From the IMG/VR virus record IMGVR_UViG_3300017780_007785, positions 1-39,560 of that record: 39,560 nucleotides of DNA; one strand, written 5' to 3'. The notes beneath the pieces were generated by a model. It worked only from the letters and a program-made list of their open reading frames with translations. It was not told the DNA's origin and made no database searches. The stretch is from a virus (lineage: Duplodnaviria > Caudoviricetes). The position numbers and the translations under genes are program-made. Below are positions 2,214 to 38,908 of the stretch, piece after piece (positions within the stretch are counted from its first letter, which is position 1; every line of letters starts with the position of its first letter).

Positions 2214-2546
2214 TTAAAGAGAAAAAGATTCACCACATCCACAAGTTCTTGATGCGTTAGGATTTCCCCATTGAAATCCTTTCCCATTTAATCCATCTGA
2301 GTAGTCTAATTCAGTACCATACAGATATAACACTGATTTTCTATCAATAATCACTTTTAATCCTCCATCAATTTCGACGGTTTCATCAGTATCTTCAATT
2401 TTGTTGTCAAAATCCATAACGTAAGAAAGCCCACTACATCCTCCACCTTTTACGCCAACGCGTAAGTGGTGAGAGTCTGGTGTTATGTTAGACTCCATCA
2501 TTAAATTTACAACATGTTGTAACGCCTTTTCTGAAACTGTAATCAT
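2214..2546 (-). CDS. iscA: Fe-S cluster assembly A-type carrier IscA/HesB
   Basis: GGGCSGLSY and CGCGESF motifs. Confidence 0.95.
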   Translation of the reverse strand: MITVSEKALQHVVNLMMESNITPDSHHLRVGVKGGGCSGLSYVMDFDNKIEDTDETVEIDGGLKVIIDRKSVLYLYGTELDYSDGLNGKGFQWGNPNASRTCGCGESFSL

Positions 2547-2854
2547 TAGTTGTATGTTAAATCAAAAAATTTATAATTCTTATGAACGGAAATTTCATCA
2601 CCTGCCTTTATTGCTAAATCCTCATCTTCGTAAATTGCGTTAACAGGACATTCAGGCTCACACGCACCACAATTGATACAAATATCAGGATTGATGTACA
2701 TTTGACCGCCTGGGAATGATGCTCTACCATCCCTTTCAATTTCACCACCAGAGCCTTCAATATCGATAGGTCCATGAATACAATCTACTGGACACACACT
2801 TGCGCAAGCGGTATCCATACAATCAACACAACTCTTCCCAATAATATAACTCAT
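2546..2854 (-). CDS. Dicluster (7Fe/8Fe, FdxA-like) ferredoxin
   Basis: CVDCMDTACASVCPVDC and CINCGACEPECP motifs, with a ~20-aa insertion between them. Confidence 0.9.
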   Translation of the reverse strand: MSYIIGKSCVDCMDTACASVCPVDCIHGPIDIEGSGGEIERDGRASFPGGQMYINPDICINCGACEPECPVNAIYEDEDLAIKAGDEISVHKNYKFFDLTYN

Positions 2855-2873
2855 ACTTTATTTTTTTTTATTT

Positions 2874-3284
2874 TTATACGTGTGAGGCATCGAAGATTAA
2901 TTCTTCTAATCCTTGTTTCTTTCTATAGTCATTTATCGCAGATTTTATTGCGTCTTCCGCTAATACTGAACAATGTATTTTAACTGGAGGTAATGATAGT
3001 TCTTCTACCAACTCCATATTGTCCATTTTAATCGCTTCATCTATAGACATTCCTTTCAACCATTCTGTTGCTAATGAAGACGCCGCTATTGCACTTCCAC
3101 AACCAAATGTTTTGAATTTTGCATCAGTTATGATGTTATCATTAACTTCTATTTGTAATCTCATTACATCACCACATTCAGGTGCCCCAACTAAACCTGT
3201 GCCTACATTAGATTTTGACTTATCCAATGTGCCAACATTTCTTGGGTTATTGAAATGGTCTATCACTTTATTTCCGTATGCCAT
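2874..3284 (-). CDS. iscU: Fe-S cluster scaffold IscU
   Basis: NPRNVG, GAPECGD, FGCGSAIA, LPPVKIHCS motifs. Confidence 0.96.
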   Translation of the reverse strand: MAYGNKVIDHFNNPRNVGTLDKSKSNVGTGLVGAPECGDVMRLQIEVNDNIITDAKFKTFGCGSAIAASSLATEWLKGMSIDEAIKMDNMELVEELSLPPVKIHCSVLAEDAIKSAINDYRKKQGLEELIFDASHV

Positions 3285-19139: not shown

Positions 19140-20040
19140 TTATATCTCGTTTGGAAAGTTTATTAAAAACATTTAATTGTATTTCATCAATAATAACATT
19201 ATTGGTTTTACTAGTACATCGTTCAATTTCATTCATACAAAAATTATCTTTAATAATCATATGTGTTTTGTGGTGCCCATAATGGTAAAAGTGGTGTCCA
19301 CAATTTTCTAAGTTCAACCCGATAGATTTAACTAAATCATCGTTAGTATTAATTGGACAAAAATTGTCAATTAAAAGGTTACATTTTTGATTGTGTTCAT
19401 TTGAAAGTTGTCTTAACATATATTGTTCAACGAACATCATGAATTTACTATTCTCAACTTTACTTAAGTTATTAGGTAATATTTTATAGTTAGACCTCAT
19501 ATAACTAATAGCTAAGTCACAGTAAAGATTCTTAAAACTTTCATTTTTTAAGAAAAGAAATGAAGTATTGAAAGCATTATAATCCCACGGTAATCTCCAA
19601 TCTAAGTACGTATAAGACATCGCATATTGTGGAGTCATATAGAATTCATTTCTAATGTCCTCCATCCATAAACAACTTATGTCCGATTCGAATACATTAA
19701 ACTTTGTAATGTCATCGAATATCCTAAAATCTAAATCCAAAGTTAATGTTGGTCCTTCGATAGACCTTTGAGCAATTATCTTACCTGCAGCCCAATAAAC
19801 AGTTTTATTAATCCCACACTCTTCATCTAATAAAGTTTCATTAACCTCATCAAATAAAGATAAGAATCCAAATTGTTCGTAGTATTTTTTAGTGTATTGG
19901 TCGACAAAGAATATTGTCTTGAAGTTAGGGTAGTAATGTTTAATAAATAACAAACAAGACAGAGTACATAGTACTTCTGCCTTGGTTTGTTTGAACGTTC
20001 CGTCTTTATTAATGTCTTCAGCAACCCAAATTACAGTCAT
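19120..20040 (-). CDS. DUF6734-like putative DxD nucleotide-sugar transferase
   Basis: YWAAGKI, LDLDF, NTSFL, VEQ. Confidence 0.55.
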   Translation of the reverse strand: MTVIWVAEDINKDGTFKQTKAEVLCTLSCLLFIKHYYPNFKTIFFVDQYTKKYYEQFGFLSLFDEVNETLLDEECGINKTVYWAAGKIIAQRSIEGPTLTLDLDFRIFDDITKFNVFESDISCLWMEDIRNEFYMTPQYAMSYTYLDWRLPWDYNAFNTSFLFLKNESFKNLYCDLAISYMRSNYKILPNNLSKVENSKFMMFVEQYMLRQLSNEHNQKCNLLIDNFCPINTNDDLVKSIGLNLENCGHHFYHYGHHKTHMIIKDNFCMNEIERCTSKTNNVIIDEIQLNVFNKLSKRDINEGCFC

Positions 20041-20095
20041 GGGATAAAAATAATCAATACCCTAAGATAAATAAAGGGAGACAGTCTCACTTTAT

Positions 20096-20635
20096 TTATT
20101 CTAAAATTAGTTGACTTGGGTTTCTATCTCCACCGTCCGTAATTAGACGGTATGTTTTTATTTCACCTAAATCAGGGAAGCTAATCTGTTCTACTGTAAT
20201 ACCCCATTTGGAAACTTGTTCATTAACTTCTGGCATAACTATCAATCCTAAGTCAACCAATTCTTCCCACATAGTGTTTTCAACCATATCTCTAATAACA
20301 CCTTGAGTTGTATCAACAAGTACATCATTAGCATGCATTACCCCTAATAAAAACTTCTTAACATCGTGAATGTGATACCTAACAATACTGGTCAATACAA
20401 TCGACTTATCATCGAAAGATGTAACCGTTTGTGGTTTTAAGTTTACCGTTTGAGTAATGACAGGTGTAGTAATAATTTGGTCAAAGAATGGAATCTTGAA
20501 ATTTAATCCAGGTTTCACAATTCTTTTAAACTTACCAGTAGTTAAATGAACCCCTTCTTCCCATTGGTCTACAATTTTGAACGGAAGAATGTCATGAATA
20601 AAAGTTACAAAAAGGTCAATAAATTTGTCGAACAT
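20096..20635 (-). CDS. SPFH / band 7 domain protein
   Basis: PGLNFKIPFFD, QTVTSFDDKSI, WGITVEQI; start at 20635. Confidence 0.85.
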   Translation of the reverse strand: MFDKFIDLFVTFIHDILPFKIVDQWEEGVHLTTGKFKRIVKPGLNFKIPFFDQIITTPVITQTVNLKPQTVTSFDDKSIVLTSIVRYHIHDVKKFLLGVMHANDVLVDTTQGVIRDMVENTMWEELVDLGLIVMPEVNEQVSKWGITVEQISFPDLGEIKTYRLITDGGDRNPSQLILE

Positions 20636-20657
20636 ATATTTTGGGTTTGTTGAACAA

Positions 20658-20689
20658 CAAAGATAGGACTTTTTTGGGACTTGTCCAAA
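20658..20689 (-). promoter_or_regulatory. Bacteroidota sigma70-type promoter
   Basis: TTTG-N20-TATCTTTG. Confidence 0.85.
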
Positions 20690-20690
20690 T

Positions 20691-20720
20691 AAAAAACCCC
20701 GACGTAGAAACGTCAGGGTT
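20691..20720 (-). terminator. Rho-independent terminator ending the large ncRNA transcript
   Basis: AACCCTGACG-TTTCTA-CGTCGGGGTTTTTT on minus strand. Confidence 0.85.
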
Positions 20721-20721
20721 A

Positions 20722-21545
20722 GTTGGCATTCAGGTTGAGAATACACCTTTCAATGAGAGACTTTACAGGAGATTATTTATTTCCTCCGATTTCCACTTCC
20801 TTTTGAGAAGTACCTCTCAGTCACGGTCAATTAGATTAACCAATCCTAAAGTCGTAATATACTCTGTTTTTACTCATCACTCTTCGAGACTGCCGCCCCA
20901 ATTAATCCTTGCGAGACTAGAGAACTTTTAAAACAATCGTATTGGGTTTGGGACCCTTTACGGCCATGAACAACTCATGACTAAGTAGTGACCTGTCTAT
21001 CACGACTGACGAACACTTTTCCTTTGTTTCTTTTATGATTTGTTAGAATCCTTATTTTAACAATAGGGGTTGATAGTGGATGATAAATGTAGCGGTCCGT
21101 CAACCAGCCATCCCATCTTTTGAACGAGACGATACTGAACTACACTTTGAAGTCTCCCGACCTCCATATTTCAAGTCAACTGCTTAACTCCTACCTTGGT
21201 AGATGAAGAGTAAGGAGAACAACAGCACCACCTGTACGAACTCTTACCTTTCGGTTTTAAGCTAACTTTAATATTGAACTCCGCAATTGTATAGTTGGAT
21301 AACCATACTTCTCACAACAGTTCTACAGGTTACTCTTGTTGGTGTTCCCACCTCAACCAAACGACCCACATCGCTCGGTCATCAAATCACTTTCCCTATA
21401 GTGTTACCCTCGGTACTTAAGACTCAATGATGTCCTGCCTGTCTACTCGAGTTCCTTTTCGGAAACCGCAACTCACCCTAATCGAGAGTGAACCACTTTA
21501 TACCACTTTCATGGTTTATTTTATGGACTATAGACCGCCCAATTT
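20722..21545 (-). ncRNA. Large structured ncRNA, GOLLD-like (~820 nt)
   Basis: No credible ORF, raised GC, many GNRA-capped hairpins, long-range helices, AU-rich central linker, next to a tRNA, flanked by promoter and terminator. Confidence 0.7.
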
Positions 21546-21611
21546 CTTTATCTTTGTCTCAGAATCAACCCGAAGGTCTCATCATCAACATATTTTAAGA
21601 AAATATTTTAT

Positions 21612-21622
21612 ATTCAAAGAAC
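21612..21622 (-). promoter_or_regulatory. boxA-like element
   Basis: GTTCTTTGAAT downstream of leader hairpin. Confidence 0.45.
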
Positions 21623-21634
21623 GTATTCAAAATT

Positions 21635-21687
21635 AATGAAGGAGGAGCTGACCTTACCGAAGTAGGATTTCAACCCTCTCCTTCATT
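21635..21687 (-). other. Leader hairpin with UUCG tetraloop
   Basis: AATGAAGGAG...AC-TTCG-GT...CTCCTTCATT. Confidence 0.75.
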
Positions 21688-21694
21688 TGTTTCA

Positions 21695-21726
21695 CAAAGG
21701 TAGATGAAAGTTTTGAGACTATCAAA
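21695..21726 (-). promoter_or_regulatory. Bacteroidota sigma70-type promoter
   Basis: TTTG-N20-TACCTTTG. Confidence 0.8.
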
Positions 21727-21777
21727 TTTTTATGAAACTTTTTTTTGACTGATGATTTTAACGAATTCATTCTTCCT

Positions 21778-21925
21778 TGATAGTATCACCTAACTATCTT
21801 GTTGACCCCCTACTCTCAATAGGACGGGCTAATTCGTCTGTTTGTCAAAGAAACCATCAGTTTTACCTGAAAGTTTGTTTTGGGAGGAAACCTCGATTTT
21901 ACGAACCTATGGTCAACCTTTCCAA
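21778..21925 (-). ncRNA. Candidate small structured RNA
   Basis: GTTGACC/GGTCAAC closing helix (21801-21917) with internal hairpins, directly after a promoter. Confidence 0.4.
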
Positions 21926-21934
21926 ATTGTTTTA

Positions 21935-21966
21935 CAAAGATATGAAGAACTTTTCAATTAATCAAA
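21935..21966 (-). promoter_or_regulatory. Bacteroidota sigma70-type promoter
   Basis: TTTG-N20-TATCTTTG. Confidence 0.8.
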
Positions 21967-22007
21967 TAGTTTATAAAACTTTTTTTTGTGAAATTTAATT
22001 CACGTTG

Positions 22008-22079
22008 TTGCGGGAGATGGATTCGAACCACCGACCTAAAGGTTATGAGCCTTCCGAGCTACCACTGCTCTATCCCACG
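22008..22079 (-). tRNA. tRNA-Met(CAT), initiator type; CCA not encoded
   Basis: CGTGGGATAGAGCAGTGGTAGCTCGGAAGGCTCATAACCTTTAGGTCGGTGGTTCGAATCCATCTCCCGCAA; C1xA72 mismatch. Confidence 0.95.
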
Positions 22080-22092
22080 GTATATTTTTAAA

Positions 22093-22161
22093 TGATTACT
22101 TCCCACTTCCCCACGGTCACCTATCCACGTCATGCGCTGGTTGTACCAGCGGGTGTAATCA
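22093..22161 (-). ncRNA. Candidate 69-nt GC-rich structured RNA
   Basis: TGATTAC/GTAATCA closing stem plus CGCTGGT-ACA-ACCAGCG hairpin. Confidence 0.45.
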
Positions 22162-22170
22162 ATATTTTAA

Positions 22171-22181
22171 TGTTAAAGAAC
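22171..22181 (-). promoter_or_regulatory. boxA-like antitermination element
   Basis: GTTCTTTAACA vs rrn boxA consensus GCTCTTTAACA. Confidence 0.6.
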
Positions 22182-22188
22182 TTCTGAT

Positions 22189-22241
22189 AAAAAATCCCAC
22201 GAGATTAAGAAGTTTTCTCAAACTCCACACTCATGGGATTT
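22189..22241 (-). other. Leader hairpin with U-tract (terminator/attenuator-like)
   Basis: AAATCCCATGAG...CTCGTGGGATTTTTT. Confidence 0.7.
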
Positions 22242-22247
22242 GTTTCA

Positions 22248-22279
22248 CAAAGATAGGAAAGAATTCTCATTCTATCAAA
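22248..22279 (-). promoter_or_regulatory. Bacteroidota sigma70-type promoter
   Basis: TTTG-N20-TATCTTTG. Confidence 0.85.
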
Positions 22280-22359
22280 TCTTTTTTTATTGTGAGTTTT
22301 GGGGGTGTTGACCTTTCGGTCGAGTTATATAAATATATCCTTATTCCCCAAAGGTTTTA

Positions 22360-22390
22360 CAAAGATAAAAAATATTTTTAAAAAATCAAA
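22360..22390 (-). promoter_or_regulatory. Bacteroidota sigma70-type promoter
   Basis: TTTG-N19-TATCTTTG. Confidence 0.8.
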
Positions 22391-22492
22391 ACTTTCCCCA
22401 TTGAGATTTATGTTTATTTTCTTCCGAGATTTTAAATCCCAACCAAATCTCTTTCAATATTGATTTAATTTTTTTCATAGTATTTATTAAGT

Positions 22493-22846
22493 ATGAAGGT
22501 CAAAATTAATGAAAATATCTTTAATGTCAAAACTTTAATTGACAAAAAATCCCAATCAATAGGTATGATGGGTAAAACATTTGACGATGCGTTTAATGGT
22601 TTATTATTCTTAATGGAAGGTAATAAACAATGTTTTTGGATGAAAAACTGTATTATTCCTTTAGATATAATTATTATAAAGAACAATGTTATTGTAAATA
22701 TACATCACGATTGCCCTCCATGTAATGATGAATTTGATTGTCCTTCCTACTGTGGCAACGGTAATATTGTATTAGAAATTGAGGGCGGTTCTTGTGAAAT
22801 ACTTAATATCCAAGCTGGAGATAGTATTACTTACGACCTATCTTAA
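22493..22846 (+). CDS. DUF192 domain protein
   Basis: GMMG, GLLF, FWMKNCIIPLDII, VLEIEGG. Confidence 0.9.
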   Translation: MKVKINENIFNVKTLIDKKSQSIGMMGKTFDDAFNGLLFLMEGNKQCFWMKNCIIPLDIIIIKNNVIVNIHHDCPPCNDEFDCPSYCGNGNIVLEIEGGSCEILNIQAGDSITYDLS

Positions 22847-24255
22847 TCTTCAGAAGAATTCTTAGACTCCGCGATTTTTTCTTTTAATACTTTTTGGAAT
22901 TCGTTTGCAATCATTTTTGTAAACTTGACAGATGGTGAATCATCTTTTTCAGAATCATATCTATACTGTCCTTGTGGTGGCCTCTTTCCTCTACCTAAGT
23001 AGTTAAATCCTGATATGTTAGTAATACATTTGTGCCCACCCGAGTTGGATTGAATAAGGTCCCAAGCATTAATTCCAATTTTGTCCATCAATGAGATTTC
23101 TTCTTCAGATAAATCACTGAATGGTTTCTCCATCATTTCCTCAATTCTACCTAATATTTCTTCTCCCCCATCCATAAACATGAATTTACCACCGTAAAGA
23201 GCATCAAAATCTTTAAAAGTAAACCCAACACTTTCAGGTCCTGTACTTGTCTCACTAACCCACTTCATAGTTGATAGTGGTATCTTTCTCTCCTTTAATT
23301 GGTCTTTCCACTTACCGATTACCTCTTGAGCTATTTCCCCAAGATTAACACCTTTAAGTTCTCTTTCTTTCTTAAATGGATTACAAGAAGCTTGAACAAG
23401 TCCCATCGGCCACGCCATGATGAGAAAGTCTGCTTCAGGATTATTTCTGAATGGTGTATATCTGTCGTAAGACCCAGGTTTAAACATACTACCCCCACCA
23501 TATTGGAAGATAATGTTATCAGACACCGTTGGGTAGTCCTTCATTTTGTCGGCATAATCTTGTGCATTTTTTTGTAGGTCTTCAGGTTTTGCTGCGTTTG
23601 TTCTTGTCATCCAAGTTTTAATGTTATTAAGTATCGACATTAAAGATGGTTCAGAATCCATAACCAAAGACTCTAAGAATCCTGGTTTGTTTTTAAACGC
23701 TAAAAGTAATTTGTTGATTACTAACCCCAATAACATTTTGTTTCTTTGAAGTGAGGAATCTTTATCTATTCTGTAGATGTAGTTAACTACCTCTTGTGGT
23801 GTTATGTCATGTTTGGCATAATCCGCAGAGTCCACAGTATTGATTAGTAAAATATCTGACGATGGGAATAAATCAGTTGGTGACACGACTTGTGAAATTG
23901 TCTCAACGTTTGAACGGGCTCCTCTAAATTGTTTTGATGTTCCCTTCTCAACCCCAACTTGTTTGTCGTGGTGGTCAGTGTGAATTACAAACATTGGCTT
24001 ACCGTGAGCAAAGTCAACGAGGACTGGCATTATATCACCTTGAGCATCATTCTTTTTAACAGAGAACTCTTTGTCACCGTATTGAATGATATGTGCACCT
24101 ACAACATCAATACCATTATCTTCAAGGTATTTCTTCATTGCAATTGCCGTTGTTACACCGTCCAAATCTTGGTGGAAATAAATCTCCGCCTTTTGATATC
24201 TCTCCTTAAGAGCATTGATGTTTCTAAGTCCTGTTTCTGATAATATTCTTTTCAT
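22843..24255 (-). CDS. DHH-family phosphoesterase-like protein
   Basis: HQDLDG, VDF, DHH, SGGH motifs. Confidence 0.75.
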   Translation of the reverse strand: MKRILSETGLRNINALKERYQKAEIYFHQDLDGVTTAIAMKKYLEDNGIDVVGAHIIQYGDKEFSVKKNDAQGDIMPVLVDFAHGKPMFVIHTDHHDKQVGVEKGTSKQFRGARSNVETISQVVSPTDLFPSSDILLINTVDSADYAKHDITPQEVVNYIYRIDKDSSLQRNKMLLGLVINKLLLAFKNKPGFLESLVMDSEPSLMSILNNIKTWMTRTNAAKPEDLQKNAQDYADKMKDYPTVSDNIIFQYGGGSMFKPGSYDRYTPFRNNPEADFLIMAWPMGLVQASCNPFKKERELKGVNLGEIAQEVIGKWKDQLKERKIPLSTMKWVSETSTGPESVGFTFKDFDALYGGKFMFMDGGEEILGRIEEMMEKPFSDLSEEEISLMDKIGINAWDLIQSNSGGHKCITNISGFNYLGRGKRPPQGQYRYDSEKDDSPSVKFTKMIANEFQKVLKEKIAESKNSSED

Positions 24256-33040: not shown

Positions 33041-34867
33041 TTAATACCCCTTTTCTGTTACTAATTCTTCAAGTTTTTCTAATTTAGTTAAACTATTATT
33101 TAACATATCTGATTGTTCTTTAATAGCTTCTAAACATATTGCAATAACATCACCATACTTAACCATAAACATAGAATTCTCATCGTCTGTTGATTTAAAA
33201 ACTAATTCAGGAAAAACGTGTTCTATTTCTTGGGCAATAAAACCAATATCTTTATTTGGTGTATTGTTGTTAGATGAATTCCAAATAAACGAAACTCCTC
33301 TCATTTTTTGAACTTTACTAAGTGGTGTTTCAATTTCACGAATATTTTTCTTAAATCTGGCATCGGAAGGTCCAAACGCACCTTTTGAACCACTCGCACC
33401 TTGAGCACCTTGTGCTCCTGTTTCACCACCTGGTCCTTGTGAACCTTGTGGTCCTGTATTACCTTGGGCTCCTGTTGGTGATGGTCCTGTCGCTCCTGGT
33501 CCTCCTTGTGAACCTTGAGCTCCTGTCGCACCTCCTCCACCTTGTGAACCTTGGCCACCTTGTGAACCTTGGGCTCCTTGTGGTGAACCACTTGTAGCAC
33601 CTTGTGCCCCTTGTGACCCTTGACCTGTGGCAGTTCCTTGTGAACCTTGTCCTCCTTGAGCACCTTGAGCACCTTGTCCTCCTGTTGGTCCTTGAGCTCC
33701 TTGAGCACCTTGTGGTGAAGCCCCTATATGACCTTGGGCTCCTGTGGAACCTCCTCCACCTTGTGAACCTTGTCCTCCTTGAGCACCTTGAGCACCTTGT
33801 CCTCCTGTTGGCCCTTGGGCTCCTGTTGCACCTTGTGGTGAAGCCCCTATATGACCTTGGGCTCCTGTGGAACCTCCTCCACCTTGTGAACCTTGTCCTC
33901 CTTGAGCACCTTGAGCCCCTTGTCCTCCTGTTGGCCCTTGGGCTCCTGTTGCACCTTGTGGTGAAGCACCTTGAGCACCTTGTGAACCTGTATTACCAGC
34001 ACCTCCTTGTGACCCTTGTCCTCCTTGAGCACCTTGGGCTCCTTGTCCTCCTTGAGCACCTGTATTTCCTGTTGCACCTGTTGGTGAAGCTCCTGTTGCA
34101 CCTTGTGCTCCTGTAGACCCTCCTCCACCTTGTGAACCTTGACCACCTTGAGCACCTGTAGACCCTTGTCCTCCTGCTGGTCCTGTTGAACCTTGAGCTC
34201 CTGTTGGTGAAGCCCCTTGAGCGCCAGTATTACCCGTACCTCCTTGTGAACCTTGAGGTCCTTGACCTCCTTGAGCACCTTGAGACCCTTGTCCTCCTTG
34301 AGCCCCTTGAGCCCCTTGAGCCCCTTTTGGCCCTTGAGAACCTTGAGCTCCTTGACCACCTTGTGAACCTTGAGCTCCTGTTGAACCTTGTGAACCTTGT
34401 CCTCCTTGAGAACCTTGTCCTCCTTGAGAACCTTGTCCTCCTTGAGAACCTTGTCCTCCTTGGGCACCAGTATTACCTGTCGCACCTTGTGGTCCTAATG
34501 CTCCTTGAGAACCTACTGCACCTGTTGGTCCTACGGTTCCTTGAGCACCTGTATTACCTTGAGCTCCCTGAGGTCCTTGTGAACCTACGGAACCTTGAGC
34601 ACCTGTTGGTCCTGTTGGTTCGAGCGCTCCTTTCCATCCTGTCGAATCTATTAAAGTTCCTGTTGTATTAGTTACAGTTGTACCTATATATAAGTTTGAA
34701 TTACTTGTAATAAATTGAGGAGATGTATTACTTAATGCAAAGTAAGTTGTTCCCGCTCGTTTAAACTTCAATGCACCTGATTCAATTACTAATGTAGTTA
34801 GTGTTGAACCTGAGTCATAGAAATCAATCGTTCCACTACCAGGGGTTATAATTATATTCTCAGCCAC
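33041..34867 (-). CDS. Collagen-like fibre protein with C-terminal peptidase S74 chaperone
   Basis: Long G-X-Y run; [15 protein letters not shown]. Confidence 0.92.
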
Positions 34868-36776
34868 CTATTATTTCTTTTAATTTGTTTATTCTTTCAT
34901 AAATGGAGTCTATAGTTCTTTGTTGTTCTTGAATACTTCCTATACCCAAACTAACTAATTGACCATATTCGACACTTTTATATCCATCATCATCTGTAAA
35001 TACTAATTCAGGAATTACTTTTTCTAAATCTTGTGCAATAAATCCAATAGATTCTCCTGAGAAAGCTGTTGGGAATGCAATTTGTTTATCATTCTTAATC
35101 TTATCATGTTCTGAATCCCATTCGAATCTAACACCTTGTATTTGTTTTGTTTTTTGTAAAACATTTTCAAGTGTTTTTATATTGTCTTTTAATCTTTTAT
35201 CTGATGCAGGTCCTTGTGAACCTTGGGCTCCTTGGGCTCCTGTTGCACCTTGAGGTGAAGCACCTTGAGCTCCAGTACCACCAGGTCCTCCTTGTGAACC
35301 TTGAGGGCCTGGTCCTGGTGTTCCACCTTGTGAACCTTGAGCACCTCCTGCTCCAGTTCCTCCTTGAGAACCTTGAGCTCCTTGTGTACTTCCTGCAGCA
35401 CCTTGGGCTCCTGTTGCACCTGGTCCTCCTTGAGCTCCTTGAGCTCCTGTTGCACCTACTCCTCCTTGAGACCCTTGGGCTCCTGTATTACCAACGTTTC
35501 CTTGGGCTCCTGTAGACCCTCCTTGAGCACCTTGGGCTCCAACAGGTCCTTGAGCACCTTGTGGACCTCCAGTACCTGTGGCACCTTTAGGTCCTTGAGA
35601 CCCTTGGGCTCCTGTGTTACCAACGGCTCCTTGGGCTCCTGTAGACCCTCCTTGAGCACCTTGGGCTCCTTTAGGTCCTTGTGCACCTTGTGGACCTCCA
35701 GTACCTGTGGCACCTTTAGGTCCTTGTGAACCTTGAGCTCCTGTATTACCAACGTTTCCTTGGGCTCCTGTGGACGCTCCTTGAGCACCTTGGGCTCCTT
35801 TAGGTCCTTGTGCACCTTGTCCTCCAACGTTTCCTGTTGCCCCACCGCTTCCTTGGGCTCCTTGGGCTCCTGTGTTACCAACGTTTCCTTGGGCTCCTGT
35901 GGATGCTCCTTGAGCACCTTGGGCTCCTTTAGGTCCTTGAGCACCTTGTCCTCCAGTAATACCTGTAGCACCACCACCACCTTGAGACCCTTGAGCTCCT
36001 GTGTTACCAACGGCTCCTTGTGCTCCTGTATTCGCACCTTGAGCTCCTTGTCCACCTTGTGAACCTTGTGGTCCTGTTGCTCCAACATTACCTGTACCAC
36101 CTTGAGACCCTTGGGCTCCTGTGTTACCTGTTGGTCCTGTATTACCTTGGGCTCCTGTGGACGCTCCTTGAGCACCTTGGGCTCCTGTATCTCCTGTCGC
36201 TCCTTGAGCACCTTGAGCTCCTGTGTTCGCACCTTGAGCTCCTTGACTACCAACTGTTCCCTGAGCACCTGTACTACCCTGAGCACCTGTGTTTGCACCT
36301 TGGGCTCCTTGTGAACCTTGGGCTCCTGTATTACCAACCGCACCTTGTGAACCTGTAATACCTGTTGGTCCTGTAGTTCCTTGAGCGCCTTGTCCACCTT
36401 GAGCACCTTGTCCTCCCGCAGCTCCTTGTGAACCTTGATTACCTTGTGGTCCCTGAGCTCCTTGAGCACCTTGATTACCTTGTGAGCCCTGAGCTCCTAT
36501 AATACCTGATGTTGGTCCAACCCAAACACCTGAGGAGTTAATCATTTGGACACCTCCTACATATAAACTACCAACACCACCATTAGGTGTTATTGTCACA
36601 CCTGTTACTGTTATGTTTGCAGGTCCAATTACAGCTCCACTTGACTGTGTCGCGGAAGAAAGAGAAAGAAATCCGTTTTTAGTATTAAATTGTAACTTAT
36701 TAGTACCGTCATCAAATACAACGTGTGGGTCTGTATTACCTGTATTACCTTGTGGATATATTATTATATTTGCCAT
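34860..36776 (-). CDS. Collagen-like fibre protein with C-terminal peptidase S74 chaperone
   Basis: G-X-Y run; [15 protein letters not shown]. Confidence 0.92.
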
Positions 36777-38908
36777 TACTTAATTTTAGATTTGATATAT
36801 TCCAATTGTTTATCAATATCTTCAATAAATATTTGTTGTTCTTTAATACCTTCCACTAATACGGCATTTAACTTGGAATAATCTATTGAATAGTATCCAT
36901 CATCGTTCATTCTAACCACCTCAGGGAAATACAATCTAACATTTTGGGCAATTAACCCTATAGTATGAAGTTTTTGTTGTTTCTTGAAGTAATCGAACAA
37001 ACTTGGATTTAAATTTTTATTCCAATCATATTCAACCGCATCTATTTTCATAATAGATTCCAAAACATTTTTAAGTGTTTCAATTCCATTTTTTAATCTA
37101 ACATCAGAGAAACCACACGAAAACCCAAATCCAGTCGCACTTCCACAGGTATAATTTAATGGTACACAAGAACTACCTCCATTATAATACGCAGTTTGAT
37201 TCCAATCACAAGTTGAAATTGCACAATTTCCATTAGAAATATACTTGTTAGCATACAGGGAGTTATACGTTGTTTGTTGGTAATAATAATAAGTACTACC
37301 ATTAGTGTAATTACAAGCGTCGATACAACTCGGGTAAAAATAACTATTAAAATAATAACACTCTACCCCTGGAGGTCCTGTTGCTCCTTGAGCTCCTTGG
37401 GCTCCTTGGGCTCCTGTTGCTCCACCACCTCCTGATGCTCCACCTGGTCCTGAACTGCCTGGAGCTCCTGTTGGGCCACCTGGTCCTGTATTTCCTTGAG
37501 CGCCTGTCGCTCCACCACCTCCTTGTGAACCTTGGGCTCCTGTATTACCTGTTGGTCCTACACCTCCTGTCGCTCCTTGAGCACCTACTGGTCCTAAGTT
37601 ACTCGCAGCACCTTGTGAACCTTGTCCACCTGCCGCGGCTGTAGAACCTGTCGGTCCTTTAGTTCCTGTGGCTCCTTGGGCTCCTGCATGTCCTATAACG
37701 CCTGATGGCCCTTGGGCTCCTGTTGAACCTACACCACCCTGAGACCCTTGGGCTCCTTGAGCTCCTGTTGAACCTGCTGGTCCTGTAGTTCCTATTGCTC
37801 CTTGAGCTCCCGCATGTCCTGTATTTCCTTGTGAACCTTGGGCTCCTGTTGAACCTACACCACCCTGAGACCCTTGAGCTCCTTGAGCTCCTGTTGAACC
37901 TGCTGGTCCTGTAGTTCCTGTGGCTCCTTGAGCTCCTGTGTTTCCTGTATTTCCTTGTGAACCTTGAGCTCCTGTTGGACCTGCTGTTCCTTGAGAACCT
38001 TGTCCTCCCTGAGCTCCTGTTGAACCTGCTGGTCCTGTAGTTCCTGTGGCTCCTTGAGCTCCTGTATTACCTGTATTACCTTGAGCACCTTGGGCTCCTG
38101 TTGGACCTGGTGTTCCTTGAGAACCTTGGGCTCCTTGAGCTCCTGTCGAACCTGCTGGTCCTGTAGTTCCTGTGGCTCCTTGAGCTCCTGTATTACCTGT
38201 CGGTCCTGTGGCACCTTGAGAACCTGTTGGCCCCACTGTTCCTTGTGAACCTTGAGCTCCTGTTGAACCTGCAGGACCTGCTGGTCCAATCGGTCCTGTT
38301 GAACCTTGAGCACCTGTGTGTCCTGTTCCTCCTGTAGCACCTTGAGTTCCTGTATTTCCTACAGCACCTTGAGCACCTGTGTGTCCTGTTCCTCCTGTAG
38401 CACCTTGTGAACCTGTGTTACCAATTGCTCCTTGAGCACCTGTGTGTCCTGTTCCTCCTGTAGCACCTTGTGAACCTGTGTTACCTTGTGCACCAGTTAA
38501 ACCTTGTGAACCTGTATTACCTTGAGCACCTGTATTACCTTGAGCCCCTGTTGTGACACTTGCAGCTCCTTGGGCTCCTGTATTTCCTGTTGGACCCGTA
38601 AATCCTGTATTTCCTTTATTACCTTGAGCTCCCTGAGCCCCCGCAATATTAGTTGTTGGCCCAATCCAATTGTTTGTACCATCAATAACCTGACTTCCAC
38701 CAACTGCCATGTAATTAATTACATTTATACTTGAACCAACAGAAATAATTGCATTCGATGGTTGTATAGATAAAACTCCTACCGAAGTTCCATCAAACGT
38801 GATTGTTGCCCCTGATAAAACTCTTAACTCAATAACCCCTGTGTTCTCAAAATCGATGAACGGGATGTCAGTTATTGGTATAGGGACTATTAATATGTTT
38901 TTAGCCAT
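36776..38908 (-). CDS. Collagen-like fibre protein with Cys/Tyr-rich tip and peptidase S74 chaperone
   Basis: G-X-Y run; ~85-aa Cys/Tyr domain; [15 protein letters not shown]. Confidence 0.92.

What the first reader, a model, noticed from the sequence alone, without database searches (positions are those of the whole stretch)
20722..21545. ~820-nt ornate ncRNA (GOLLD-like) encoded by a Bacteroidota phage
Seen: a GC-richer block with no credible ORF, between a promoter (21695-21726) and a strong terminator (20691-20720). On the minus strand it forms GNRA hairpins (ACCAT-GAAA-GTGGT 21502-21515; ACC-GAAA-GGT 21246-21255; GGTG-GGAA-CACC; GAGGTC-GGGA-GACTTC; a GCAA-capped stem at 20903-20919). It also has long-range helices (AGTCGTGATA 20998-21007 with TATTACGACT 20850-20859; GACGGAC/GTTCGTC; CCTGTA/TACAGG) and an AU-rich linker (~21015-21065) splitting two domains. 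Known: GOLLD RNAs are ~800 nt, two-domain, found in phages and lake metagenomes, usually near tRNAs, function unknown. Inference: this is a GOLLD member or a new relative.
Basis: partly seen in the sequence, partly recalled or inferred. Interest (0 to 1): 0.85.

Follow-up and report, generated by a model that had tools for sequence, protein, structure and literature searches.

The report
Known GOLLD RNA in lake phage
This gene-free stretch of a large freshwater phage is an ordinary full-length copy of GOLLD, a known giant phage RNA that is predicted to build hollow RNA-only cages, and it sits behind a signal matching the one its likely hosts use to transcribe ribosomal RNA.

Summary
Confirmed, and a known family. 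Rfam GOLLD (RF02032) matches 21147-20732 (minus) over the whole model at 327 bits (cut-off 150). Rfam does not model the 5' domain (21542-21148), but it is conserved and covaries in 50 homologues under 90% identity: 46 of the 50 top-covarying column pairs are canonical, against 2% background. Nucleotides matching all ten inter-chain bridges of the env-38 14-mer cage are present, with the donor side only checked for four. Freshwater metatranscriptome contigs cover about 20724-21590 far more deeply than a flat comparison run, a weak hint of a discrete RNA. Corrections: the CCTGTA/TACAGG helix is not conserved, and the AU-rich linker lies inside the 3' region, not between the domains. Added: an rRNA-type boxA follows the promoter in 46 of 48 homologues (1.3 expected) and in 11 of 14 host-phylum rRNA leaders. 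I found no paper on this, but the scan noted it before on other DNA. Function is untested; best guess is a cage supporting phage translation.

The parts
21695..21726 (-). Bacteroidota sigma-A-type promoter (TTTG ... TACCTTTG); start site predicted near 21690
   Evidence: consensus and -12 to -5 position from PMC9723704. A TAnnTTTG lies within 250 nt upstream of boxA in 46 of 46 homologues.
21636..21686 (-). Strong hairpin right after the promoter, in the place of the rRNA boxB; sequence variable among homologues
   Evidence: Fold z -5.05, 0 of 200 shuffles as stable; homologues seen
21613..21622 (-). boxA-type antitermination element GTTCTTTGAA
   Evidence: 46 of 48 homologues, 1.3 expected by shuffling, 31 of 497 control windows; same motif in 11 of 14 16S leaders of the host phylum
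21543..21590 (-). Variable leader hairpin between boxA and P1; absent in some homologues; possibly part of the accumulated RNA
   Evidence: boxA-to-anchor distance 27-130 nt; RNA contigs reach 21586-21587 in runs X3 and X5; weak on its own (z -0.3)
21148..21542 (-). GOLLD 5' (cap) domain, long env-38 type, with bridge elements B1 (21510-21507), B2 (G21409/C21403), B3 (21348-21345), B4 (21299-21297 with 21157-21155) and B5 (21229-21227 with 21200-21197)
   Evidence: z -3.96; 62 of 103 consensus pairs compensatory in 17 sequences
20732..21147 (-). GOLLD 3' (ring) domain, with B6 (21122-21118), B7 (21022-21021 with 20951-20950), B8 (GC 20912-20911), B9 (GC 20893-20892) and B10 (20804-20801)
   Evidence: Rfam RF02032, 327.1 bits, E 3.8e-93, model positions 1-416
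21025..21084 (-). Variable AU-rich linker J13/15, which faces the cage interior in env-38; no embedded tRNA here
   Evidence: 40-64 nt in 50 homologues; no tRNA inside any of the 50
20724..20731 (-). Short 3' tail; possible mature 3' end near 20724
   Evidence: Adapter junctions at 20723 in runs X4 and X9, contig end at 20725 in X2; weak hint only
20690..20720 (-). Intrinsic terminator (11-pair stem and U tract)
22007..22079 (-). tRNA-Met(CAU), initiator-like (C1.A72 mismatch), upstream neighbour with its own promoter (22255) and boxA (22181)
   Evidence: a CAU tRNA-like gene adjoins 22 of 50 homologues, 15 upstream and 7 downstream

Best explanation
This is a full-length GOLLD RNA gene of a large phage; it is likely transcribed by the host polymerase in rRNA fashion, is predicted to assemble into a hollow 14-copy RNA cage, and most likely serves the phage's protein synthesis by sheltering or presenting tRNA or ribosomes. 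Shown here: family membership, the two-domain covarying fold, conservation of the cage-contact nucleotides, and the promoter-hairpin-boxA-RNA-terminator layout. Inferred: (1) host sigma-A polymerase starts near 21690, and boxA recruits the host NusB-NusE antitermination complex, which protects an untranslated 1-kb transcript from early termination and may help it fold (about 0.7); (2) the leader and terminator are trimmed to leave about 820-870 nt (about 0.6); (3) the 3' domains form rings, the 5' domains cap them, and two half-shells join through the self-complementary GC loops, as in env-38 (about 0.85 for a cage, lower for exactly 14 copies); (4) the cage supports translation (about 0.35, untested).
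For: Rfam 327 bits, full model. Covariation in both domains. Bridge nucleotides of env-38 (Supplementary Table 2 of PMC12286853) map onto the window and are kept in 41-50 of 50 homologues. The B7 pair 21021/20951 was found by blind covariation and is G-C 25, C-G 22, A-U 3 of 50. The B8 loop shows the published GC-to-CG switch in some homologues. boxA in 46 of 48 homologues and 11 of 14 host-phylum 16S leaders. No RNA polymerase beta and no NusB in 5 of 5 related large records, 4 of them at least 90% complete. RNA contigs of 7 freshwater runs lie on the gene at contig depths of tens to hundreds, while run X18 is flat at 4-7 and continues into both flanks. CAU tRNA on either side in 22 of 50. 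Ribosome pull-down and tRNA-in-linker cases are reported second-hand in 10.1101/2024.12.08.627333.
Against: No bench data for this copy. The RNA evidence is assembled contigs from runs chosen because they hold this stretch, so it shows no strand, level or true ends; adapter junctions in X3 (20756) and X11 (20769) fall elsewhere. Only 3 of the 5 B4 Watson-Crick pairs are kept in the window. Receptor sides of the A-minor bridges B1, B3, B6 and B10 were not checked. The boxA 9-mer is near background genome-wide (for example 31 against 22 control hits in G044), and the 642-kb record L301 has no strict boxA in the 410 nt read before its GOLLD. 28 of 50 homologues have no CAU tRNA nearby, and none has a tRNA in the linker. 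tRNA adjacency may only reflect shared stable-RNA promoters, as PMC5737381 notes.
Confidence: 0.6

Rival explanations
1. Decoy: the RNA folds and assembles, but its use is to soak up host factors, either antiviral ribonucleases or, through strong boxA-bearing promoters, the Nus complex needed for host rRNA synthesis.
For: Three promoter-hairpin-boxA units lie within 700 nt; the phages lack their own NusB; RNA contigs over the gene are deep.
Against: RNA contigs in X3, X5 and X9 do not cover boxA itself (21595-21672), so the accumulated RNA may lack it. A sponge would not obviously need ten conserved inter-chain bridges.
Confidence: 0.2
2. The RNA works in the cell as a protein-bound particle or a smaller oligomer; the empty 14-mer is one state, or mainly an in vitro one.
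For: GOLLD stoichiometry varies (10, 12, 14) with sequence (PMC12990946). Here P11a is short, as in 36 of 50 homologues, while env-38 has a long one; B4 is shortened.
Against: B7 and B8 covary as inter-chain pairs; env-38 cages persist at 12.5 nM. Downstream neighbours differ among homologues, so no fixed partner gene is evident.
Confidence: 0.13
3. GOLLD is a ribozyme or processing machine, for example acting on tRNA precursors.
For: Size, pseudoknots and many invariant unpaired nucleotides; tRNA neighbours.
Against: The invariant loops I checked are accounted for by cage contacts; the passages read report no catalysis.
Confidence: 0.06
4. A new ornate RNA family that merely resembles GOLLD.
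For: Rfam models only the 3' half, so the 5' half has no model hit.
Against: 327 bits over the full model; the 5' domain matches env-38 motif by motif.
Confidence: 0.01

Closest known systems
GOLLD RNA env-38 (Rfam RF02032; 14-mer cage, PDB 9MEE; PMC12286853 and 10.1101/2024.12.08.627333)
   Same: Length (811-nt core against 833), two domains, downstream of a Met-tRNA, P11a-c and P21b present, nucleotides for bridges B1-B10
   Different: Short P11a; B4 keeps 3 of 5 pairs; B7 is G-C/G-C here where env-38 has A-U/G-C; freshwater rather than marine source
Streptococcus agalactiae GOLLD (700 nt, 12-mer; as reviewed in PMC12990946)
   Same: Conserved 3' domain and its kissing loops
   Different: That RNA lacks P9, P11a-c and P21b; the window has the P11a-c and P21b elements, so it is the long type
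Mycobacterial GOLLD in tRNA arrays (PMC6582537; PMC12990946)
   Same: 3' domain; tRNA neighbourhood
   Different: Those carry a tRNA or pseudo-tRNA inside the RNA; the window's 60-nt linker has none
Bacterial rRNA operon leader, boxB-boxA with the NusA/B/E/G-SuhB-S4 complex (PMC10250234)
   Same: Promoter, hairpin, boxA, then a large structured RNA; same boxA motif as host-phylum 16S leaders
   Different: Product is not rRNA; no boxC or leader-trailer helix was tested; Nus binding not shown
ROOL and OLE RNAs
   Same: Large ornate bacterial or phage RNAs forming RNA-only multimers
   Different: No Rfam match to either at E up to 10 in 20000-23000

Membership tests
GOLLD (RF02032) | Conserved 3' domain above the curated cut-off | tested here: met
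   327.1 bits against 150, model 1-416
GOLLD (RF02032) | About 700-850 nt with a structured, more variable 5' domain | tested here: met
   Core 811 nt; homologues 770-874; 62 of 103 5' pairs compensatory
GOLLD (RF02032) | Long-range helices and pseudoknots kept by covariation | tested here: met
GOLLD (RF02032) | Non-coding | tested here: met
   53 of 551 indels are multiples of three; only short opposite-strand ORFs
GOLLD (RF02032) | Phage context, often near tRNA | tested here: met
   Virus record; tRNA-Met about 460 nt upstream
GOLLD (RF02032) | Expressed as a discrete RNA | tested here: inconclusive
   Contigs of 7 RNA runs cover the gene deeply and the flanks little, but contigs give no strand, ends or level
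GOLLD, env-38 14-mer type | Nucleotides of bridges B1-B10 | tested here: met
   Pairing bridges B2, B5, B7, B8, B9 met; B4 three of five pairs; donor loops of B1, B3, B6, B10 met, receptors not checked
GOLLD, env-38 14-mer type | Assembly into a D7 cage | not testable with these tools
   Needs mass photometry or cryo-EM
rRNA-type boxA antitermination leader | boxA motif between promoter and RNA, matching host rRNA leaders | tested here: met
   46 of 48 homologues; 11 of 14 16S leaders
rRNA-type boxA antitermination leader | NusB-NusE binding and read-through | not testable with these tools
   Bench assay needed
rRNA-type boxA antitermination leader | boxC and leader-trailer helix | not tested
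   No dedicated test was run
ROOL / OLE / HEARO | Rfam model match | tested here: not met
   No hit at gathering or at E up to 10

The most novel reading that the evidence does not exclude
These phages run a ribosomal-RNA look-alike factory: three promoter-hairpin-boxA units make an initiator-like tRNA, two uncatalogued small RNAs and GOLLD with the host's rRNA antitermination complex, and the cage captures initiator tRNA because its near-invariant UGGU loop (21230-21227; 77 of 77) can pair with the tRNA's ACCA end in place of GOLLD's own ACCA loop, making the cage a tRNA-sensing store. The boxA part alone is about 0.7 likely; the tRNA-capture part is a guess, weakened because the Streptococcus GOLLD lacks these loops and other bridges are also invariant.
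Probability: 0.08. Interest if true: 0.8.

Novelty: new member of a known kind. Interest (0 to 1): 0.3.

Why it matters
The RNA itself is ordinary for its family, and close relatives are common (about 480 stored stretches in IMG/VR match one 5' motif). Its value is practical. It gives a deep alignment that includes the 5' domain Rfam lacks, three-way covariation supporting the inter-chain bridge B7, and a testable handle on biogenesis (boxA) for an RNA whose function is an open question. If boxA proves functional, GOLLD would be a phage RNA made and folded by the host's rRNA machinery.

Tried and rejected
1) CCTGTA/TACAGG helix: present in the single-sequence fold, not conserved. 2) A tRNA-like CCA 3' end as a family feature: the window reads CCA at 20726-20724, but only 10 of 50 homologues have CCA within 19 nt of the last conserved loop. 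3) tRNA inside the linker: 0 of 50. 4) Overlap with the downstream SPFH gene: the mechanical ORF starts at 20746, but homologues are about 179-180 aa, so the start is ATG 20635 behind its own promoter at 20665. 5) Annotated relatives: only two unannotated huge-phage records match in the phage collection, none in plasmids. 6) Pattern was loose: 50 of its 66 loci had no GOLLD and were dropped. 7) Host from genome bins: three GTDB hits (Flavobacterium, Bacteroidetes, Woesearchaeota) are short contigs in metagenome bins, probably misbinned phage DNA, so they are not used as host proof. 8) Generic sigma-70 scan: 31 sites against 28 expected, uninformative. 9) Genome-wide boxA enrichment: near background. 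10) Lack of RNA cover at boxA and in the flanks cannot prove absence. 11) Weinberg 2009 and Morgado 2020 were not held, so a mention of boxA there cannot be excluded; bioRxiv supplements, and one picture-only and one oversized supplement of PMC12286853, were not seen.

Full report
Identity. A scan of the whole window against Rfam gives two hits: GOLLD at 21147-20732 on the minus strand (327.1 bits, cut-off 150, E 3.8e-93, model positions 1-416) and a tRNA at 22079-22008. At E up to 10 nothing else passes its cut-off in 20000-23000, and ROOL, OLE and HEARO do not appear. The window is a whole IMG/VR virus record, 13% complete by CheckV, which implies a genome near 300 kb. It carries collagen-repeat tail-fibre-like genes, Fe-S and sugar genes and a methylase. 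Related GOLLD-bearing records are 269-321 kb.

Homologues. Four pattern scans of viral contigs and one of genomes gave 222 loci. With the window's own, 173 of 223 matched a profile of the RNA, 118 were full-length and 78 distinct. After dropping one truncated sequence, 77 were aligned and reduced to 50 below 90% identity, 61-88% identical to the window. Of 33 loci sent to Rfam, all 33 passed the GOLLD cut-off. Conservation starts near 21542; core lengths are 770-874 nt, 811 in the window.

Structure. Mutual information over all column pairs, with no structure supplied, ranks canonical pairs first: 25 of the top 25, 46 of 50 and 107 of 170, against 2.1% for random variable columns; 18 of those 46 lie in the 5' domain. 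In a 17-sequence alignment of the 5' domain, 62 of 103 consensus pairs show compensatory change (shuffles 32, slid partners 11-18). These controls are not tree-aware, and the consensus was derived from the same alignment. Indels ignore reading frame (53 of 551 are multiples of three).

Cage contacts. Supplementary Table 2 of PMC12286853 lists the bridge residues of the env-38 14-mer, and Table 4 its sequence. I mapped them to the window by motif, by eye, and counted them in the 50 homologues. B1 loop 49-50 of 50; B2 G-C 50; B3 adenines 50; B4 three core pairs 50 each, outer two 14 and 4 and mismatched in the window; B5 three pairs 50 each, including the G.A pair; B6 adenines 50; B7 50 and 50, the second pair being G-C 25, C-G 22, A-U 3; B8 GC 41, with CG-type loops in several others; B9 GC 47, CG 3; B10 adenines 50. 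Receptor sides of the A-minor bridges were not checked. The window has P11a-c and P21b, which the 12-mer Streptococcus GOLLD lacks (PMC12990946), so it is the long type. Assembly is predicted, not shown.

Transcription unit. The promoter fits the Bacteroidota sigma-A consensus TAnnTTTG (PMC9723704). It is followed by a strong hairpin (z -5.05), then GTTCTTTGAA at 21622-21613. I first saw this motif. It lies within 200 nt upstream of the first conserved motif in 46 of 48 homologues (2 of the 50 dropped for lack of an anchor; both misses have one mismatch); shuffling predicts 1.3, and 31 of 497 control windows have it. 41 of the 50 loci were fetched after the motif was noticed. boxA is necessary and sufficient for the rRNA antitermination complex in E. 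coli, which has been proposed to chaperone folding (PMC10250234). Five large relatives encode neither RNA polymerase beta nor NusB. Against: the 9-mer is near background genome-wide, and record L301 lacks it before GOLLD. That a similar boxA occurs in other phyla is recalled, so it does not identify the host.

Expression. 17 freshwater RNA runs from 17 studies hold 0.43-0.67 of the words of a 1.8-kb stretch of which GOLLD is 46%. Seven were laid. Listed contigs over the gene have depths of about 95-960 in six runs and about 40-75 in X11; flanking contigs are mostly under 15, except upstream pieces in X1 (21649-21884, depth 465) and X9 (depth 69). Run X18, of unrecorded kind, is flat at 4-7 and runs on into both flanks. 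Contigs stop at 20723-20725 in three runs and at 21586-21587 in two. These are contigs from runs chosen for holding the stretch, so this is a hint of a discrete RNA, not a measurement.

Context. A CAU tRNA-like gene adjoins 22 of 50 homologues, 15 upstream and 7 downstream; the window's has a C1.A72 mismatch, an initiator mark by recalled rules. env-38 also lies downstream of a Met-tRNA. No homologue has a tRNA in the linker.

Mechanism. I commit to: host-polymerase transcription with boxA antitermination, trimming, assembly into a hollow cage, and a role supporting phage translation through tRNA or ribosome handling. The first three steps rest on conservation and homology. The last rests on tRNA linkage and a second-hand report of ribosome pull-down and is about 0.35 likely. 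Decoy, protein-bound and catalytic rivals remain open.

Literature seen. 10.1101/2024.12.08.627333: parts 1-3 and 6 of 7 and passages. PMC12286853: passages and supplement 1 part 2; no occurrence of boxA or antitermination in its main text. PMC12990946, PMC10250234, PMC9723704, PMC6582537, PMC5737381: passages only. Searches: GOLLD; boxA, antitermination, phage, tRNA, GOLLD, at least 4 of 5 terms (none of the 19 papers holds both boxA and GOLLD); boxA with jumbo phage; RNA nanocage, GOLLD, function from 2025; listings only. Weinberg 2009 and Morgado 2020 were not held. Earlier notes of this scan report GOLLD with a boxA leader in other genomes; I looked them up after my own tests, and they are not independent support.

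Verdict. Interest 0.3.

Noticed in passing
window 22093-22161 (-): About 70-nt conserved element between boxA (22181) and tRNA-Met; its 25-nt core is exact in 41 viral loci, with compensatory changes in the closing stem in one variant (L230); absent in some close relatives; no Rfam hit; fold z only -1.2.
   Followed up: partly
window 21760-21838 (-): Small RNA candidate behind its own promoter (21942) and a boxA variant (21853-21845): a conserved hairpin in a variable closing stem, always after boxA in this clade; 36 pattern hits, a few unrelated; RNA contigs cover it in X1 and X9; no Rfam hit.
   Followed up: partly
window 21600-22400 (-): Four tandem TAnnTTTG promoters (22367, 22255, 21942, 21702); the last three each lead through a hairpin to a boxA-like site, forming an RNA-only island.
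   Followed up: partly
window 20096-20635 (-): SPFH/Band 7 protein of 179 aa with its own promoter right after the terminator; 345 homologues; not a constant neighbour of GOLLD.
   Followed up: partly
L021 and L064, 5' domain: GOLLD with a long AU-rich insertion (roughly 150 nt by eye) early in the 5' domain, in a 330-kb record.
   Followed up: no
L052, upstream of GOLLD: A tRNA-like gene interrupted in the anticodon loop by about 200 nt that looks by eye like a group I intron.
   Followed up: no
L088, L094, L110, L137: Phage tmRNA genes next to GOLLD, in L088, L094 and L137 also tRNA arrays.
   Followed up: no
L100, L126, L029, L142, L110, L116, L138, L170: Atypical CAU tRNA-like genes with odd D arms beside GOLLD, several missed by ARAGORN.
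   Followed up: no
window 2214-3284 (-): Fe-S cluster trio (IscA-like, ferredoxin, NifU-like) in a phage.
   Followed up: no
window 33041-38908 (-): Three tandem collagen-repeat tail-fibre-like genes, each ending in an S74 chaperone domain.
   Followed up: no
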